A stretch of DNA of 63,685 nt, the filler included, from Actinomycetota bacterium (GTDB taxonomy: Bacteria > Actinomycetota > Actinomycetes > JAKEEW01), in the NCBI GenBank assembly GCA_046725875.1. It is 6 parts of 6 records of this genome, joined end to end, with 100 filler letters (N's around TTAATTAATTAA, not from the genome) between each part and the next. Parts side by side here need not be neighbours in the genome. Positions count along the whole stretch, not along the records: positions 35,820 to 47,851 come from JBKOZJ010000040.1; 5 more parts are not named here. One strand, given 5' to 3'. Each line of letters opens with the position of its first letter. Positions within the stretch are counted from its first letter, which is position 1. Below are positions 36,001 through 45,000 of this stretch, piece by piece. The position numbers were made by a program.

Positions 36001-39000
36001 GCAGGTCGTGCTCGTTCCCATCTGTGTGGAACCCACCCGAGGGCGCGAGCCTGCGCCACGGCGCTCCCGAATCGCGGCTTCCTAGATCATCTACCTGTCC
36101 GTCATACGTCCGTGGACAGTTATAGACGCATGGACCCGATGGGACTCAGTTGGACTCATCCGGACCGGCCAGAGACCGCTCGCACACCGCATAGTCCCAT
36201 GCTCAATTGAGTAACCAAGCTGATCGTCGGACATCGCTCCACCGCCGGCTTTCCGACGTCTGATCTCGATAGTACGTAAGCAGGACTCCTGGCATCATCG
36301 CCCAGCTAAGTGATGACGGCGGGATCGTGTAGACGGTTCCTGCCGGGCACGTCCGTCGGGATGGTGGCGTGACCATCACGGTGCGCGGTGACGAACTCGA
36401 CAAACGACAACGGCAACCCCAGCGGGCAGTCGATCCCGTCATTGTCCGCGCCAGCACCGCATTGATGACCAGCGAGTCAGACCGCCGCGGGCGCTACCCG
36501 CCGGCCGGTCCGGCTGGGCCGCCCTGATGCTGGTGCACGCCGGCGCTGCAAGGACCACCCGCGTCCGCCACGCGCATGGCGCGCTCCGCGGCCCTGAAGC
36601 CGTTGACGAAGTCTCTCACGGACGTGGAGCGTTGCGCCGTGTTCGGGCCTCGTAGGTGGACCGTTCTGCCCATGTCAGCTTGGTGGCAGCGCCGTGGAAC
36701 CGGTTGACACCCCACCTGCGGTGCCGACCTTGACCGGCGCAGGTCGTGCATTGCCTATGAGAGCAGGGGAACATTGTTCCCCTGTGCCTGCCCGTTTCCC
36801 CGCATGATCGGCAGGCTTTGAACGGATGCCGGTGCAGCGATACCCAATAGGACGCGCCCGCGCCCCCGGCAATAAGTGCCCCCCAGAGCAGCAGGTTCCC
36901 ATGGCCGATTACAAGTGCCGCGATAAGCAGTAACCCCATCCCCCATTGCCCTAATAGTGACACTACGAGACAGGTCCTGCAATGGTCAGGCTTACGCCTG
37001 AGCGGCTTGCGAGTCTTGTTTCTGATGAGAATGAAACTGTATTTCATTGCGGACAAGTGTTCGACGTTAAAATGACCTTATAGATCAAGATAAGCAGATG
37101 CTTGCTAATTCTCCCGCGCGGACGACCTTACGCAGCTGGTCGAGGTAAGACCTGGTGGCCTGCACGGAGGGATGGCGCTCCTTGGCACCGTCGTCAGGCC
37201 GCGGCCGCCGAGCTCGACGACGGCGAAGATGTGTTCGCGGTGTTTGCGAACGGTGCGGGACAGGTCGAGCATCGCCGGGATCCGGGATCGGCTGGCGTGG
37301 GCGAGCCAGGCGTCGAGGTGGGCGTCGGCGCGCCGTCCGGGTGGGAGCCGATAGAGGTCGCGGAGCTCTTCGGTGAGCGCCCACGCGCGGAACAGTACGT
37401 GGCGGGTGCGGCGCAGTTGTGCGATCTGCTCGCGTTGCTGCTCGGTCCAGCTCGCTGGGTCGTTGAGCAGCGCCCACCGGGTGGGTTTGATCAGCTGGGC
37501 GGCGGGGTCTTGGCGGACCCGGGCCAGCGGGCTGGGCCGGCCGATCCTGGCGGCCATGCGGGCGAGGTTCCACTCGGTGCGTCTGGCCCCGCGGCAGTCC
37601 AGGCGGCGAATCTCGGCCCGCAAGAGCAGTCGGCGGTACCCAGATCCAGGGCCCGCCACCGACGCACCGTCCGGTCGTAGACGGCGCGGGTCGACCAGCC
37701 GCACGTGCAGGTCAGCCGGCGGGCGCGCCGGTGCACGTCGACCACGATCCCCTGCGGGGTGAACGTCACGCCGACCACGTCGGCGCCGGGCACGGCGAGC
37801 ATCTTGTTGAATGCGGTGGTGGCGCGCACGCGTCGCTCCAAGGGGTTCCGGTTTGCTTGGCAGCTCCGAAACCTACGAGGACGACGCGTGCGCGTCCTGC
37901 AACCCGCCGACGGTCCCCACAACGCCTTACAAATCAAGCGCATCCGTTCGAAACAGCGATCCGATCACCCACGGGAAGCCGAGGAGTCCCAGTTTTCAGG
38001 CGTCGTCGAATCGGGTGGCGTTCTCGGTGAACAGCTCGCAGGACCATGCCGGCGAGCCTGCGCTGACGGGAACTTTTGCGTGGGTCCACCCTGTGGTCTG
38101 CAAGACGGCGGCGATGTGTTGGCCCTGGCCGAGGCTGTCCGACTGGCGCCGGGACGGTGCGTCGTTGCTCATAGTTGCTCCGGCTAATCGGTATCTCCGG
38201 GCGCTCCACGGTGCTCTACTTATATGTACGCCACATGGCAGCTTGCATAGCCGCCTGTCGCGTGGAGGGGGTGTACCCAGGTGACGAGCACTGCGTCGTT
38301 GCTGCTACCGCCCCGTCGCCTCTTCGGCATCAACCCTATCTGGGCAGTGGGGCCGGCAGCCCGGAGGTGGAGCTAATGGCTGACTCGGCCGGTCCATCAC
38401 CGGGTCGGATCTTCATCAGCTACCGCCGAGAGGAGACCGCCTACCCGGCGGGTTGGCTGTTTGACCGGCTGGCTGATCGCTTCGGCGGACAGGTCTTCAA
38501 GGACGTCGATTCGATCGAGTTGGGTGACGACTTCGTCGAGGTAATCACCGGAGCGGTTGGGTCCTGCGACGTGCTGCTGGCGCTGATCGGCGACCAGTGG
38601 CTCACGATCACTAACGAGGATGGGCGGCGTCGCCTCGATGACCCCGACGATTTCGTGCGCCTGGAGATCGAGGCGGCCTTGACGCGCAACGTGCGCGTCA
38701 TCCCGATCCTCGTGGACGGAGCCAGGATGCCGCGAGCCGCCGACCTGCCGCCCAGCCTGGCCAAGCTTGTGCGCCGCCAGGCCCTCGAACTTAGCCCAGC
38801 CCGGTTCGACTTCGACACCAGCCGGTTGCTCAGGGTGCTGGACAAGACTCTTGCCGACGTGCGGACCGCACAAGAGCATGCGGCCGGGATATCGGTGCCG
38901 GCCGACAAGGCGCCAGACCTCACCACAACGGAGCCGCCGGTCGCGCCGGACCGACAGCGGCGGGCGGAATCCGGTCCACCACGCAGCATTCCGCCGGCAG

Positions 39001-42000: not shown

Positions 42001-45000
42001 TGATCGTCGTCCTGGAGGGGACCCAGCACCTCTACCAGTTCCAGGAGCACTGGATCACCTATCGCTCCACCGCCGAGGCGCTCAAGCACGAGCGGTTCCT
42101 CTACCTGGCCGGCGCCGGACCGTACCTGGGTGCAGATCGGCACAGCCAGTTGGCGGAGCGAATCGAAGGCCTGATCTCTCAAGAACACGCCAAGTGGACA
42201 GCAAGCCATGCAGAGGGCCGCGCCCGGGCGCAGGATCGATAGTCGGCCGAGAGCAGTGACGCTCGCGATTTGCGGTCGATACCGAGTCCGGGCACCGCAG
42301 GCCACGGTGGGGAAGCCTGAAGGGTTCAGAAACGCGAAGTGCCTGCTGGACGTGAGTCTGCGCTGCAGGGATCGGGCCGAGGATCGGCATGACGCGCAGG
42401 GCCAGACACAGACCAACGTGACCGTCGCCGGCCGCTGGGTCTACTTGTATCGGGCGGTCGACGGGTTCGGGCAGGTGATCGACGTGTACGCCTCCACCCG
42501 CCGCGACGGCAAGGCCGCGCGCCGGTTCTTCCAGCCGGCGAGGACTCGGAAGCGGCGGCTTTCGTCATGCTGCACGACCGGCACCCGTCACCGTGACGGT
42601 CGTGGTGAGTGAGAGTGGCGCGAAGGATGAGCCGGAGCCGGGCACGCTGACTCTCGGTGGGTCTGTTGCATTGAGCGAGGCCGGTGCTTCGGCATGCTGG
42701 TGCCGCATGCGGCTGACTCGGCGGCTCGCCGAACGTGGCATCGGCGTCGACCACGTCACAGTGCACCGCTGCGTGCAGCGGTTTGCGCCGCTGCTGGCCG
42801 ACGCAGCCCGGTTCGGCCGGCACCGGGTCGGCGACCGCTGGCACGTCGATGAGACCAATGTCAAGGTCGCCGGCCGGTTGATCTACCTGTACCGCGCGGT
42901 CGACCAATACGGGCAGGGGCTCTGTTGCATTGACCGAGGCAAGGTAGTTCGGCACGGTCGACCAGTTCGGGCAGGTCATCGACGTGTATGCCTCCGCGCG
43001 CCGGGACGGCGAGGCCGCGCGTCGGTTCTTCCAGCGCGCCAGGAACGCCACCGGTGTGGTGCCGGTGGAGGTCGTCACCGACCGGGCGCCCACTTACCCT
43101 CGAGTCCGATGAGACCTGGCCGGCGGTCTGGGCACCACATCGAGCGATATGCGAACAACCGGGTCGAAGCCGATCACGCCCACCTGAAGCGGCGACTACG
43201 CCCGATGCGCGGGATCAAGACCATGACCGGACTACGGGTCCTCGCCGCAGGTCACGCGTTCGTTCAGAACCTCCGCCGCGGACATTACGAGATCGCCACA
43301 GACGAGCCAGGCACCCGCCGACTCGCTGTCGCGTTCGCCCAACTGGCCAAGGTCGTCTGACCGAAGCTCGGACAACCCCGCTCCTCGGCATGCTCGGCTA
43401 TCGAATAATGCAACAGACCCAGTGCGAACCCGAACTCGACCCGGACCGGCCCAGCCGCAGCGAATTCCAGAGGATTGACATCGCCGTCGCAACGCACGTA
43501 GAAGGCATCGGCCGCACTCTCGCCGACAAATCCGCTCTTTCGCCAGAGAATGTCGAGCGCAATTTCGACGCTACTTTGAGGCGGGTCCAGACTCTCGTGC
43601 TGCTCCGCTCGAGGGCGTGTGGGGTTCTAGAGGTCGGGCTTGCCGTGACCTGCGGCGATTTGCCACGGCCGAGGCACAGACGCAGGTCGGGCAAAGAACC
43701 TCGCCGCCCAGGTCCGCGGCGAGCCCCCGGGAAAGCACAGCGAGTTCGGACAGATCCCGCTACATGCGTCCTCGACGCTGGGAACAACGGCGTGATGATC
43801 CTCGCGGACAAGATGCTCCCACCCGCAGGGCCGCCGCGCTCATCCCCGGCCTTCAGTCCCACGCCGCTGTTCGAGAGGTAGTTCTTCTGGACGCCCTGAA
43901 ACGGCTACGTTCGCCTACCCTGACCTGGCCAAGACCCAGTCGGCGTCCCGCCTGTCGGGTGCGAAACCCTGTGATCGGGCCCGCCCTGGGCGTTCATGCG
44001 GCGACAAGTTGATGAGCCGCTTTCTTGGTTCTCCAGGGAACGTCGCACCGTTTTATACGGATAGCACGTTGAGATGCGCGAGAAACTCGTCATTGACCTC
44101 GGCCTCCCAGCTACGGCGGTTGACAAGGCGCAACAGAGTTTGCCCTGGCCGTAGGGCCTGGAGGGTGAGAACCCGCATGCCTGGCGCGCCGCGGGGACTG
44201 GTCGCGCCCTCGTAGCTGTCGCTAACCTGCCGCAGTGCGGCAGGATCGATCTCCGCGTGCCAGCGGTGTCCGGTCGTCGGATTCTCGGGTAGCCGGATAT
44301 TGACCGTGTCGCCTACGCGGATGGTCACCTGGGCGCCCGAGTCCGCTTTCCCTAGCTGCATGACTCACCTCCGTTGCCGGCCTGTGGCTGGCTTTGGTGA
44401 CTCGTCGTCTCCGTTCAGGAATGCTCGCAGAGGCGTCGCAACGTGACTACGATCCGCTGCAGATAGTGATCAATCAACCATGACTGATCATGAAGCCGTG
44501 TGGACGATTTCCGCGAGGCACTGGAAGGGGGCTGGATCATGGCCGGAGGTTTGCTCGACAGCGGCTTCCTCTACCGCAAATTTGAGGAGGTCGTGCACGA
44601 GGGTATGCGGCTGGGCCGCAACCTGTGGCTGGATGCGCGAAGTCTCGCGTTCATGGTCGAAAACGACGTCGAGGAGATGGGCAGGTCGTTGCACTCGCGG
44701 GAGTGGGAACGCGTGCTGGCCATCCTCGACCAGGGCCAGCTCGGGTCGTGCACTGGCAACGCTGGCGCCGGCGCGCTCGGCACCCAGCCGCTGTACGATG
44801 AGTGCGGCCGGAACGTGCTGCCGGCACCCGACGACGCGCCCCGCGCCGAGGAGTTCGCAGTCCAGCTGTACTCGGACGCGACGAAGGTCGACGCCTATCT
44901 AGGTGAATACCCTCCCGATGACACCGGGTCATCCGGCCTCGCAATCTGCAAGGTCCTCAAGACCCGCGGGATCATCTCCCGCTACCGCTGGGCGCGCACC

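What a model noticed while it worked through the whole genome (the two positions that open the first line are those of the whole stretch)
38376..42242. Receptor-like TIR protein: cytoplasmic TIR, one membrane helix, extracellular 7-bladed beta-propeller shared with caspas [...]
g00859 (C40 2557-4752, 731 aa) has an N-terminal TIR domain without signal peptide (res 12-160), a ~150-residue Pro/Ala-rich linker, a single hydrophobic helix (res ~313-335) and a C-terminal beta-propeller (res ~355-731) that must lie outside the cell: the layout of an animal Toll-like receptor, built from unrelated parts. The same propeller (DUF6242_C-like) is found in uncultured Actinomycetota behind interchangeable cytoplasmic heads - TIR, caspase, CHAT, Ser/Thr kinase, adenylate cyclase, SARP - including a caspase-headed protein whose propeller is 87% identical to this one, so death/immunity effectors and ordinary signalling modules are swapped on one extracellular sensor. 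A SLATT/DUF42 [...]
Evidence so far: Pfam TIR_2 E 4e-10 res 12-119, nothing else over cut-off; PADLOC only ThsB-like TIR; NCBIfam only a Thoeris type III ThcB4-like TIR stretch, res 11-70. UniRef50/GTDB hits cover only res 1-190. Search with res 340-731: 279 proteins at E<=1e-5; among the 119 other listed proteins the precomputed Pfam heads are TIR 13, caspase 4 (87, 86, 69, 62% identical propellers), CHAT 3, Pkinase 29, Guanylate_cyc 7, SARP/BTAD 6, HSP70/MreB-like 2, the rest propeller only or other. AlphaFold2 on a 30-sequence alignment: mean pLDDT 91.1, pTM 0.91, all-beta, 27 strands; Foldseek PDB top hits are beta-propellers (CylK 7roo E 7e-14, beta-TrCP WD40, Kelch). Seven DAAVW..S.DG..W repeats in the alignment consensus [...]
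(Added by a program. Inside this text positions count along the whole contig: they may not be those of the stretch shown here. "Call 12" and the like, gene names such as g00115 and contig names such as C1 are that model's own, and its searches are not shown. The text may have been shortened before it was handed on; [...] marks where a part breaks off. The agent that wrote the report below was given it as the finding of a first reader that could run no searches.)

Follow-up and report, generated by a model that had tools for sequence, protein, structure and literature searches.

The report
Membrane-anchored TIR receptor with SLATT partner
An actinobacterial gene joins a SARM1-like NAD-cleaving TIR domain inside the cell, through one membrane helix, to a seven-bladed propeller outside it, and relatives pair such genes with a SLATT pore gene, which suggests a bacterial immune switch that reads signals from outside the cell.

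Summary
Window 38376..40571 (+) is an intact 731-aa gene with four parts: an N-terminal TIR, a Pro/Ala linker, one TM helix and a 7-bladed propeller.

New here:
1. The TIR is SARM1-like by sequence and by fold. Its catalytic Glu (E97) is invariant in 14 of 14 TIR-headed relatives.
2. This TIR head is a constant module, 75-88% identical, on dozens of unrelated tails that follow one TM helix. The tails include Kelch, WD40, PD40, GDPD and PASTA+SBP.
3. The SLATT gene at 41760..42242 is the conserved operon partner. It lies 25-35 nt downstream of the TIR gene in 7 of 80 relatives' loci, including cultured Pseudarthrobacter. TIR+SLATT is the recently described type VII Thoeris, which signals through cADPR.
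4. The window's gene is a recombinant. Promoter, TIR and linker match a TIR/SLATT operon; TM and propeller match a caspase-headed gene (90.6% nt). IS debris now separates it from SLATT.
5. TIR, caspase and CHAT heads share one propeller subclade. Kinase, cyclase and SARP heads sit on others.

Best reading: a type VII Thoeris-like system whose TIR sensor is a transmembrane receptor. The ligand, the enzyme activity and the coupling to SLATT are all inferred.

The parts
38153..38375 (+). Upstream region carried along with the TIR head (likely promoter and RBS)
   Evidence: 83% nt identity to L002 runs without a break from 223 nt upstream of the start codon into the gene. GGAGGTGGAG lies before the ATG. 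No sigma-70 consensus match was found.
38376..40571 (+). Intact gene for the 731-aa TIR - linker - TM - propeller protein (P0001)
38406..38885 (+). Cytoplasmic SARM1-like TIR domain (res 11-170), catalytic Glu97 at 38664-38666
   Evidence: Pfam TIR_2 4e-10. The best PDB sequence matches are SARM1 TIR, with E642 aligned to E97. E97 is invariant in 14 of 14 and in 74 of 74 rows. AF2 pLDDT 87.6. The top 34 ranks in Foldseek are SARM1 or TIR-1 chains.
38886..39311 (+). Pro/Ala-rich, probably disordered linker (res 171-312) ending in an Arg-rich stretch
   Evidence: Sequence. Linkers are only 38% identical among close orthologues. 8 K/R in the 15 residues before the TM helix.
39215..39220 (+). Recombination junction (about residue 281) between the L002-like part and the L082-like part
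   Evidence: blastn end points 3401 and 3396 in contig coordinates; three-way alignment.
39312..39386 (+). Single transmembrane helix (res 313-337)
   Evidence: Kyte-Doolittle 2.85. The positive-inside pattern holds in 63 of 65 headed propeller proteins and 58 of 59 TIR-family proteins, and is reversed in none.
39438..40568 (+). Extracytoplasmic seven-bladed Asp-box-like beta-propeller (res 355-731)
   Evidence: AF2 pLDDT 93.2, pTM 0.91; Foldseek; seven-repeat consensus. Head-less relatives begin with a hydrophobic N-terminal segment.
40572..40622 (+). 3' flank that travelled with the propeller cassette
   Evidence: The 90.6% nt match to the caspase-headed locus L082 runs 51 nt past the stop codon.
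40669..41106 (-). Fragment of an IS3-type integrase (rve_3)
   Evidence: Pfam 3.8e-11, C-terminal part only.
41210..41563 (+). C-terminal fragment of an IS6/IS240-type transposase
   Evidence: Pfam DDE_Tnp_IS240, profile positions 94-139 only. 82% direct repeat with 43156-43352.
41760..42242 (+). Intact SLATT_1/DUF4231 gene (160 aa; the ORF also opens at GTG 41739), with two hydrophobic segments as expected for the 2TM SLATT family; ThsH-like partner
   Evidence: Pfam and NCBIfam. 74-79% aa identity to the genes that directly follow TIR-TM genes in relatives. Start and RBS align with those of the relatives. Single copy in the genome.
42208..43360 (+). Remains of IS6-family transposase genes (two partial copies)
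   Evidence: Pfam; internal direct repeats D2 and D4.
37105..37704 (-). ISL3 transposase fragment upstream
   Evidence: Pfam 2.1e-16, profile positions 108-204 of 240.

Best explanation
The locus is a type VII Thoeris-like two-gene system (TIR plus SLATT) in which the TIR protein is a type-II single-pass membrane receptor rather than a soluble sensor.

Shown:
- A SARM1-like TIR with its catalytic Glu lies on the cytoplasmic side.
- One helix with a strong positive-inside bias crosses the membrane.
- A seven-bladed propeller lies outside.
- A SLATT gene is the conserved downstream partner in relatives.
- The gene is a recombinant of a TIR/SLATT operon and a caspase-TM-propeller gene.

Inferred mechanism:
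1. A multivalent cue outside the membrane binds the propellers and clusters them. Candidates are a phage particle or tail protein, or envelope polymers exposed by damage.
2. The long flexible linkers let the TIR domains assemble.
3. Assembled TIRs cleave NAD+ and make a cyclic ADP-ribose signal, canonical cADPR by analogy with type VII Thoeris and SARM1.
4. The signal opens or oligomerises the 2TM SLATT protein, which depolarises the cell and stops growth (abortive infection). NAD+ loss may add to the effect.

In this window the two genes are still intact but are separated by 1.2 kb of IS debris, so present-day co-expression is uncertain.
For: Architecture and topology.

Enzyme-type TIR: SARM1 E642 aligns with E97. 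E97 is invariant in 14 of 14 TIR-propeller proteins and in all 74 rows of the head alignment. SARM1 or TIR-1 chains fill the top 34 ranks in Foldseek (E down to 5.6e-10, TM 0.84-0.87), four orders of magnitude ahead of SPARTA, RUN1 and AbTir.

Partner gene: tblastn of the window's SLATT found homologues in 10 of 80 genome loci that hold this TIR head. Seven lie directly downstream on the same strand, with gaps of 25-35 nt (L002, L020, L021, L025, L027, L029, L044) and 74-79% identity. Five of the seven are cultured Arthrobacter or Pseudarthrobacter strains.

Operon of origin: L002 matches the window over promoter, TIR and linker (83% nt) and again over SLATT (78% nt).

Literature: TIR next to SLATT is type VII Thoeris. 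It was validated against phages, signals through canonical cADPR, and occurs in Actinomycetota (preprint 10.64898/2025.12.03.692087; passages read).

Accessory-gene distribution: the head at E<=1e-30 is in 9 of 401 genomes of the class. The propeller is in 1 of 7 genomes of the order, 2 of 401 of the class and 6 of 401 of the phylum sample. The neighbourhood is IS-rich.

Equivalence with death effectors: TIR, caspase and CHAT heads share one propeller clade. The caspase heads keep the SCHG and DCC dyad motifs.
Against: - Only 10 of 80 loci with this TIR head have a SLATT gene nearby. Most have no conserved neighbour, so the head can clearly work without SLATT.
- None of the SLATT-linked relatives carries this propeller. 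The neighbourhoods of the other 13 TIR-propeller proteins could not be fetched.
- The caspase-propeller locus L082 has no SLATT.
- In the window, IS fragments on both strands lie between the two genes, and no promoter for SLATT was recognised.
- PADLOC and NCBIfam do not file the TIR under any Thoeris model above cut-off.
- I could not compare the SLATT with validated ThsH sequences, because the preprint's supplements are closed.
- No ligand, no enzyme activity and no expression data exist.
- The junction of the chimera is not bridged by any independent contig.
Confidence: 0.5

Rival explanations
1. A self-contained suicide or dormancy receptor. Clustering of the ectodomain activates the SARM1-like TIR, which simply burns NAD+. 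The TIR is itself the effector, as the caspase and CHAT heads are in sister proteins. The SLATT gene nearby is a leftover of the donor operon with no present role.
For: - 70 of 80 loci with this head lack SLATT and show no other recurrent partner.
- TIR is exchanged with caspase and CHAT, which are direct effectors, on one propeller clade.
- SARM1, the closest solved relative, kills by NAD+ depletion (established knowledge).
- IS debris separates SLATT from the gene.
Against: - The SLATT gene is still intact, keeps its RBS and is 74-79% identical to the operon partners, which does not look like decay.
- The window's TIR and linker come from a lineage that is SLATT-coupled.
- In validated type VII systems the TIR signals rather than kills.
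Confidence: 0.27
2. Ordinary transmembrane signalling rather than immunity. The TIR head is a second-messenger generator, on a par with kinase, cyclase and SARP heads, that reports the state of the cell envelope for housekeeping or development.
For: - The propeller family also carries kinase (29), cyclase (7) and SARP (6) heads.
- The tails of the TIR family are envelope-related: PASTA+SBP, GDPD and a lectin-like jelly roll.
- The GDPD-tailed subgroup sits in conserved chromosomal synteny with alanine dehydrogenase and an Lrp regulator in 9 loci.
- NUDIX genes lie directly upstream in 3 loci.
Against: - The distribution is patchy: 9 of 401 genomes in the class.
- The setting is IS-rich.
- TIR heads share their propeller clade with caspase and CHAT, not with most kinase heads nor any cyclase or SARP head.
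- The partner is SLATT, a known cell-killing effector type.
Confidence: 0.13
3. Not a working gene: either a metagenome mis-assembly that joined a TIR gene and a caspase-propeller gene inside a GC-rich low-complexity linker, or a recent accidental fusion decaying in an IS graveyard.
For: - The protein is known from one contig only.
- The junction lies in Pro/Ala-coding, GC-rich DNA.
- No contig from four public runs bridges it.
- The contig is full of IS fragments.
Against: - The frame is open across the junction for 731 codons.
- 13 other natural TIR-TM-propeller proteins exist.
- P0006 shows a second TIR-for-caspase swap at a different point, upstream of the Ig-like linker domain that it shares with the caspase-headed proteins.
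- Two exact-match contigs from other runs cover 38337-38531 and 38910-39176.
- Both the TIR and the SLATT genes are intact.
Confidence: 0.1

Closest known systems
Type VII Thoeris (ThsB TIR + ThsH SLATT effector; canonical cADPR signal). Preprint 10.64898/2025.12.03.692087; passages read
   Same: A TIR gene with a catalytic Glu paired with a small 2TM SLATT gene. The pairing is conserved, with gaps of 25-35 nt, in relatives of this TIR head. The preprint reports type VII in Actinomycetota.
   Different: - Here the TIR protein carries a linker, a TM helix and an extracytoplasmic domain. The passages I searched do not mention membrane-anchored ThsB.
- In the window the pair is split by IS debris.
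- Homology to the validated ThsB and ThsH was not tested.
SARM1 / TIR-1 TIR domain (animal NAD+ hydrolase and cADPR producer)
   Same: It is the best solved match by sequence (E 7e-5) and by fold (TM 0.84-0.87, 25% identity). Box 1 is shared (FISYRR). The catalytic E642 aligns with E97.
   Different: There are no ARM or SAM domains. Control here would be by a membrane receptor module instead of an ARM autoinhibitor. W638 and H640 of SARM1 are F93 and R95 here.
Animal Toll-like receptors
   Same: A single-pass receptor with a repeat-built ectodomain outside and a TIR inside. The likely logic is ligand-induced clustering.
   Different: The orientation is opposite (N-in, type II). The ectodomain is a propeller, not LRR. 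The TIR is of the enzymatic type. There is no sign of adaptor TIRs. No common descent of the whole architecture is implied.
Receptor-like ParA systems (PCTM, and the TIR-ParA 'receptor-like subtype'). Preprint 10.64898/2026.10.19.760177; section 25 and passages read
   Same: A constant cytoplasmic N-terminal domain, one TM helix and a variable extracellular sensor (PASTA, Ig-like and others). They are coupled to SLATT, caspase or TIR effectors and are proposed to sense breaches of the envelope.
   Different: The constant domain there is ParA, and the TIR is a separate gene (FxsC type). Here the TIR itself is fused to the TM and sensor module, and no ParA domain is present.
Caspase proteins with TM and extracellular domains (the EACC1 two-gene system, PMC7159879; caspase-CHASE2, mentioned in PMC8195603)
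   Same: An N-terminal death protease, a variable C-terminal region and sometimes a TM helix plus an extracellular ligand-binding domain. The caspase-TM-propeller proteins P0002-P0005 fit this theme.
   Different: The ectodomain differs (an Asp-box-like propeller). No EACC1 gene was looked for. The window has TIR in place of caspase.
Actinobacterial receptor Ser/Thr kinases with extracellular propellers (for example M. tuberculosis PknD; recalled, not searched)
   Same: A cytoplasmic N-terminal output domain, one TM helix and an extracellular beta-propeller. 29 kinase-headed members of this very propeller family exist.
   Different: The output is a TIR. Most kinase-headed propellers (22 of 29) belong to other subclades.

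Membership tests
TIR domain, enzymatic (NADase-type) class | TIR fold recognised by a profile above the curated cut-off | tested here: met
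   Pfam TIR_2 40.7 bits against a cut-off of 28. The AF2 model matches solved TIRs.
TIR domain, enzymatic (NADase-type) class | Catalytic glutamate in the position of SARM1 E642 | tested here: met
   E97 aligns with E642 (numbering worked out from the full-length chain offsets). It is invariant.
TIR domain, enzymatic (NADase-type) class | NAD+ cleavage or cyclase activity | not testable with these tools
   Needs an enzyme assay.
Type VII Thoeris (ThsB + ThsH) | A TIR gene and a SLATT-domain gene in one operon | tested here: inconclusive
   In the window the two genes are on the same strand, but 1188 nt lie between the stop codon at 40571 and the ATG at 41760, and that gap is filled with IS fragments. 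In 7 of 80 relatives' loci the genes are adjacent, with gaps of 25-35 nt.
Type VII Thoeris (ThsB + ThsH) | Sequence kinship with the experimentally validated ThsB and ThsH | not tested
   Those sequences are in closed supplements. PADLOC (2023) and NCBIfam returned only generic SLATT_1 for the partner.
Type VII Thoeris (ThsB + ThsH) | Phage-triggered production of canonical cADPR, and phage defence | not testable with these tools
   Needs LC-MS and plaque assays.
Thoeris type I or type III ThsB/ThcB | A match to the curated models above cut-off | tested here: not met
   NCBIfam ThcB4 33.5 bits against a cut-off of 220, res 11-70 only. PADLOC ThsB1 E 9e-5 over 60 residues.
Toll-like receptors | An LRR ectodomain at the N-terminus (type I topology) with a C-terminal TIR | tested here: not met
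   The TIR is N-terminal with no signal peptide. The ectodomain is a C-terminal propeller. There are no LRR hits.
SARM1 family | ARM and SAM domains before the TIR | tested here: not met
   Pfam finds only TIR_2. The TIR starts at residue 11.
DUF6242_C / Asp-box-like propeller family | A seven-bladed propeller with the repeated DAAVW..S.DG..W unit | tested here: met
   279 relatives at E<=1e-5.
DUF6242_C / Asp-box-like propeller family | A Pfam PF25852 match on this protein itself | tested here: inconclusive
   The label is precomputed on many relatives but not on P0001. My Pfam copy returned none. Atlas neighbours carry it in 21-34% of members, with scores of 0.88-0.89, so this is a lead only.
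ParA receptor-like systems (PCTM / TIR-ParA) | A cytoplasmic ParA NTPase as the constant domain | tested here: not met
   No ParA or CbiA-type hit in P0001 or in the neighbouring ORFs.

The most novel reading that the evidence does not exclude
Actinomycetota hold a large, undescribed class of true transmembrane TIR receptors. Each has a constant SARM1-like, cADPR-making TIR head inside and a freely exchangeable ectodomain outside (propellers, PASTA, GDPD, lectin-like folds). These receptors would detect phage contact or envelope breach from outside the membrane, before or at genome entry, and fire a SLATT pore or NAD+ collapse. Heads (TIR, caspase, CHAT) and ectodomains would be shuffled as cassettes by recombination in the disordered linker, giving a bacterial counterpart of the receptor logic of TLRs. 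The head lineage may also be the long-sought bacterial kin of the SARM1 TIR.
Probability: 0.3. Interest if true: 0.9.

Novelty: new variant of a known kind. Interest (0 to 1): 0.72.

Why it matters
In the Thoeris and other bacterial TIR systems covered by the papers I read, the TIR proteins are treated as cytoplasmic sensors. A 2024 survey of E. coli TIR systems states that the membrane-receptor features of TLRs seem absent from bacterial TIR systems (PMC11350192, passage read). If a TIR enzyme is wired to an extracellular sensor, bacteria could trigger immunity or suicide from events at the cell surface. That is a different point of surveillance.

The family offers ready-made natural experiments: the same head on dozens of ectodomains, and the same ectodomain on TIR, caspase or CHAT. 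These could be used to study how single-pass receptors switch on TIR enzymes.

SLATT-coupled members occur in cultured Pseudarthrobacter and Arthrobacter strains, so the idea can be tested directly.

The close likeness to the SARM1 TIR also bears on the origin of that animal enzyme. A 2020 survey found no bacterial homologue of it (PMC7075850, passage read).

Tried and rejected
- The search for related loci with the 14-row alignment had no stretch conserved enough. A 7-row alignment worked.
- I looked for a remnant of the donor operon's original tail between the propeller gene and SLATT. tblastn of 80 family proteins against 40560-41800 gave nothing below E 0.008. A DNA alignment shows homology only from the SLATT RBS onward.
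- The promoter and terminator scan of 37900-42400 gave 0 promoter-like sites and 1 terminator-like site, no more than in shuffles. It is uninformative for a high-GC actinobacterium.
- Sequencing runs: no listed holder is on record as RNA, and no run held more than 0.10 of the sampled words. Contigs of four soil runs were laid at 90% likeness. They cover the conserved TIR head, a 94%-identical relative of the propeller (39292-40595) and IS parts. Two exact pieces cover 38337-38531 and 38910-39176. None bridges the junction at 39215-39220 or the gap to SLATT.
- Complex prediction of four SLATT copies gave no answer (score 0.01 against a mark of 0.42; controls were not run). This is not evidence either way.
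- The metagenome scan with the propeller returned only 4 loci. One (L082) was long enough to read its context: no SLATT, and a glyoxalase-like gene downstream.
- Pfam at E<=1 on ten unassigned tails gave only sub-threshold hints: 3keto-disac_hyd at 0.072 for L002, DUF7507 at 0.0028 for L020. The Atlas supports a lectin or GH16-like fold for the L002 tail as a lead only.
- Hypervariable ectodomains were considered and rejected. Among six Arthrobacter and Pseudarthrobacter orthologues the tails are 79% identical on average, against 93% for heads and 87.5% for SLATT.
- Literature: 7 full-text searches found no description of a bacterial TIR fused to a TM helix and an extracellular sensor. Subscription journals and closed supplements were not covered.

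Full report
**1. The observation**

The window holds an open frame 38175..40571 (+). From the ATG at 38376 it encodes 731 residues without a stop. The ATG is preceded by GGAGGTGGAG. The N-terminus aligns residue for residue with relatives.

The window is a concatenation of contigs. This gene lies on contig C40 of a 3.76-Mb genome in 197 contigs that is 89% complete.

- Pfam TIR_2, E 4e-10, res 12-119, and nothing else over cut-off.
- PADLOC: only weak ThsB-type hits.
- NCBIfam ThcB4: 33.5 bits against a cut-off of 220.
- The search with res 340-731 found 279 proteins at E<=1e-5.
- My own AlphaFold2 run on a 59-row alignment gave pLDDT 93.2, pTM 0.91 and 27 strands. Foldseek again put CylK first at 1.5e-13, followed by beta-TrCP, Kelch, sortilin and sialidases.
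- The consensus shows seven DAAVW units. The last is completed by the N-terminal strand, which is the usual closure of a propeller.

**2. Topology**

There is one strongly hydrophobic stretch, res 313-337. It has 8 Arg/Lys in the 15 residues before it and 2 after.

The same bias holds across the families:
- In 63 of 65 headed, single-TM propeller proteins the N-flank has more K/R than the C-flank. It is never reversed.
- The same is true in 58 of 59 single-TM members of the TIR-head family.

Head-less members of the propeller family begin with a hydrophobic N-terminal segment. One TIR-family tail is PASTA plus a solute-binding domain; both are known as extracytoplasmic modules (established knowledge).

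The TIR starts at residue 11 with no signal peptide. An N-in, C-out orientation (type II) is therefore well supported, though still inferred from sequence.

**3. The TIR**

The best solved relatives by sequence are SARM1 TIR chains (E 7e-5). The catalytic E642 of SARM1 aligns with E97 in the motif DFVRLEIEAAL.

E97 is invariant in all 14 TIR-headed propeller proteins and in all 74 rows of a wider head alignment.

An AlphaFold2 model of res 1-170 has pLDDT 87.6. SARM1 or C. elegans TIR-1 chains fill its top 34 Foldseek ranks (E to 5.6e-10, TM 0.84-0.87, rmsd 2.2-3.0 A). They are four orders of magnitude ahead of SPARTA, RUN1 and AbTir.

This is an enzyme-type TIR. Activity itself is not shown.

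**4. The head is a constant module on many tails**

A search of 1.84 billion cluster representatives with res 1-170 gave 34,813 hits at E<=1e-3 and 8,997 at E<=1e-30. The best 150 are separate 50%-identity clusters, yet most of them carry heads 73-88% identical to this one.

In GTDB species genomes, 307 stretches encode a relative. The best 80 were fetched. They come from Propionibacteriaceae, Arthrobacter and Pseudarthrobacter, Nocardioides, Terrabacter, Streptosporangiaceae, Acidimicrobiia and Gaiellaceae, and match only res 1 to about 160-290.

With a strict hydrophobicity cut-off:
- 60 of the 80 genome proteins and 90 of 151 representatives have exactly one TM segment.
- 13 and 47 respectively have none; some of these are fragments.

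The tails after the TM helix of 161 proteins fall into 48 BLAST components.

Pfam on 79 of the 80 (one was too short) gave these tails:

| Tail | Proteins |
|---|---|
| TIR only (no recognised tail) | 55 |
| GDPD | 9 |
| Kelch | 3 |
| PD40 | 3 |
| WD40 | 2 |
| TPR | 2 |
| YncE-like propeller | 1 |
| PASTA+SBP_bac_3 | 1 |
| FGE-sulfatase | 1 |
| Dynamin_N | 1 |
| Zinc ribbon | 1 |

The receptor-like layout is therefore a general property of this TIR lineage, not of the propeller.

**5. The SLATT gene is the partner**

The ORF at 41739..42242 is SLATT_1/DUF4231. A tblastn of it against the 80 loci found homologues in 10.
- In seven it lies directly after the TIR-TM gene on the same strand, with gaps of 25-35 nt and 74-79% identity (L002, L020, L021, L025, L027, L029, L044).
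- In L035 it is divergent and upstream. In L046 it is upstream. In L037 a weaker copy lies about 1.3 kb from a second TIR gene.

The seven include Pseudarthrobacter oxydans JCM 2521, P. siccitolerans 4J27, Arthrobacter sp. MAHUQ-56, Arthrobacter sp. OV608 and Pseudarthrobacter sp. NamB4.

Alignment of starts shows that the true start in the window is the ATG at 41760. This gives 160 aa, preceded by GAAAGGGGG.

The gene is single-copy in the genome.

A preprint of December 2025 describes TIR next to SLATT as type VII Thoeris (ThsB/ThsH). It reports phage-dependent production of canonical cADPR, toxicity on adding cADPR, and occurrence in Actinomycetota (10.64898/2025.12.03.692087; passages only). 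In those passages 'extracellular' occurs only in the reference list and 'fused' not at all. I cannot exclude that its closed tables include these loci.

**6. The window's gene is a recombinant**

blastn shows three matches:

| Window part | Window coordinates | Matches | nt identity |
|---|---|---|---|
| 223 nt upstream, TIR and linker to about residue 281 | 38153-39220 | L002, a Propionibacteriaceae MAG with a TIR-TM-tail gene followed by SLATT | 83% |
| Juxtamembrane part, TM, propeller and 51 nt of 3' flank | 39215-40622 | L082, a metagenome contig with a 929-aa caspase-TM-propeller gene | 90.6% |
| SLATT | 41757-42243 | L002's SLATT | 78% |

At protein level the TIR and linker are 77% identical to L002 over res 1-288. 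The propeller is 85% identical to L082 from res 351 on.

The three-way alignment places the switch at about 39215-39220, in Pro-coding GC-rich DNA.

Several IS remnants surround the SLATT gene:
- Between the propeller cassette and SLATT lie an rve_3 fragment (-), a 34-nt inverted repeat and an IS6 C-terminal fragment (+).
- Two more partial IS6 copies follow SLATT.
- An ISL3 fragment lies upstream.

The simplest history is that the native TM and tail of a TIR/SLATT operon were replaced by the TM-propeller cassette of a caspase-type gene, with IS activity at the 3' side.

P0006, a 758-aa TIR-propeller protein, shares with the caspase-headed proteins a roughly 90-residue linker domain (VDFGRLP.HGRSPER...). 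P0001 lacks this domain. The TIR-for-caspase exchange therefore happened at least twice, at different points.

**7. Which heads share which propeller**

A maximum-likelihood tree of the 120 propellers (quick IQ-TREE, LG+G4, SH-aLRT support; no rows dropped) needs 22 head changes. Shuffled labels need 58.9 on average, and 0 of 200 shuffles were as low.

One clade with 99% support holds 18 rows: 12 of 14 TIR, 4 of 4 caspase and 2 of 3 CHAT heads. P0001 sits inside the caspase group (99%).

SARP heads form one clade. All cyclase heads, and most kinase heads (22 of 29), lie on other lineages. The tool warned of some long branches, among them one CHAT row.

The caspase heads keep SCHG and DCC, the C14 dyad motifs (motifs recalled; conservation seen).

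The three death-type heads are thus interchangeable outputs of one sensor lineage. This argues that the TIR output is a harmful one.

**8. Distribution**

| Query | Sample | Genomes with a match |
|---|---|---|
| Propeller | Order | 1 of 7 |
| Propeller | Class | 2 of 401 |
| Propeller | Phylum sample | 6 of 401 |
| TIR head, E<=1e-30 | Class | 9 of 401 |

The counts include the window's genome and three unpublished genomes (G029, G482, G761), which enter only as tallies. This patchiness, together with the IS-rich contig, fits an accessory, horizontally moved gene.

Against a purely defence-island picture, the nine GDPD-tailed members lie in conserved synteny with alanine dehydrogenase and an Lrp regulator. 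Most loci also show no recurrent neighbour. Three loci have a NUDIX gene 56-68 nt upstream.

**9. Mechanism**

Shown: the parts, their order, the retained catalytic residue, the conserved TIR-SLATT pairing in relatives, and the cassette exchange.

Inferred:
- Ligand-driven clustering of ectodomains brings the TIR domains together. TIR enzymes need self-association (established knowledge for SARM1 and bacterial TIRs).
- NAD+ is then converted to a cADPR-type signal. This rests on analogy with type VII Thoeris and on the SARM1 likeness.
- The SLATT protein then forms a membrane lesion.

The tails seen across the family (PASTA, GDPD, a lectin-like jelly roll, propellers) point to envelope polymers or particles bound to them as cues. 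This is a guess.

Rivals and their weights:

| Reading | Weight |
|---|---|
| Type VII Thoeris-like receptor system | 0.50 |
| Stand-alone NADase receptor | 0.27 |
| Non-immune envelope signalling | 0.13 |
| Artefact or decaying fusion | 0.10 |

**10. Comparison with what is known**

- Type VII Thoeris is the closest system. Membership is open: operon adjacency in the window is broken, and kinship to the validated proteins was not tested.
- SARM1 is the closest solved TIR. The protein is not a SARM1 family member, as it has no ARM or SAM domains.
- TLRs share the logic only.
- The nearest published concept is the receptor-like ParA architecture: constant cytoplasmic ParA, one TM helix and a variable extracellular sensor, with TIR, SLATT or caspase partners. 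It was proposed to sense envelope breach (preprint 10.64898/2026.10.19.760177, section 25 read). No ParA is present here.
- Caspase proteins with a TM helix and extracellular domains were noted earlier (PMC7159879 and PMC8195603, passages).
- A 2024 E. coli survey states that TLR-like membrane features seem absent from bacterial TIR systems (PMC11350192, passage).
- A 2020 TIR survey found no bacterial SARM1 homologues (PMC7075850, passage).
- Seven full-text searches found no description of a TIR fused to a TM helix and an extracellular sensor in bacteria.

**11. Verdict**

The new content has four parts:
- the SARM1-like enzymatic head;
- the very large family of TIR-TM-variable-ectodomain proteins;
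- the conserved SLATT partner, which ties the locus to type VII Thoeris;
- the DNA-level evidence for cassette exchange of both head and ectodomain.

I rate it a new variant of a known kind, with interest 0.72.

Noticed in passing
L074:7538-7942, L078:7484-7930, L079:7509-7940: A NUDIX hydrolase gene lies 56-68 nt upstream of the TIR-TM gene, on the same strand, in three loci. It may handle ADP-ribose products of the TIR.
   Followed up: partly
L045, L047, L050, L052, L058, L063, L066, L069, L075: Eight of these nine loci carry the GDPD-tailed TIR-TM gene, and L052 has a second TIR-family gene (tail not scanned) 420 nt downstream of its main one. All nine share a conserved chromosomal neighbourhood: alanine dehydrogenase, an Lrp/AsnC regulator and a wax-ester-synthase-like gene. 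This looks vertically inherited rather than island-borne.
   Followed up: partly
L037 (uncultured actinobacterium): 1336-1701, 2975-3428 (-), 3638-5407: One locus holds two TIR-head genes on opposite strands and a DUF4231/SLATT_3 gene. One of the TIR proteins has a PASTA + SBP_bac_3 ectodomain.
   Followed up: partly
P0121, P0122, P0123, P0137, P0139, P0140 and others: Some representatives match the TIR head in two stretches, which suggests tandem double-TIR proteins. L052 also has a second TIR-head match about 2 kb downstream of the first.
   Followed up: no
P0002-P0005 res about 380-470; P0006 res about 210-300: A conserved cytoplasmic domain of about 90 residues (VDFGRLP.HGRSPERRVR.GN.GGG...), probably Ig-like, sits between the head and the TM helix in the caspase-headed proteins and in TIR-headed P0006. 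P0001 lacks it.
   Followed up: partly
window 40997-41030 and 41144-41177: A 34-nt inverted repeat, 94% complementary with 113 nt between the arms, lies between the rve_3 and IS6 fragments. It may be IS ends or a small mobile element.
   Followed up: no
window 46646-47722 (-) and 44500-45306 (+): Further along the same contig are a UDG-superfamily protein (E 3.9e-6) and an ORF with a weak papain-like C-terminal match (E 5.3e-5). Other large ORFs there have no Pfam family.
   Followed up: no
P0001 res 1-170 against the PDB: This actinobacterial TIR head is closer to animal SARM1/TIR-1 than to any solved bacterial or plant TIR, both by sequence and by fold. A 2020 survey reported no bacterial SARM1 homologues. 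It is worth a rooted phylogeny.
   Followed up: partly
L002:2880-3467: The commonest tail of the family (42 of 161 tails in one BLAST component) resembles 3-keto-disaccharide hydrolase / GH16-like jelly rolls. The Atlas score is 0.97 but Pfam gives only E 0.072, so this is a lead, not an assignment.
   Followed up: partly
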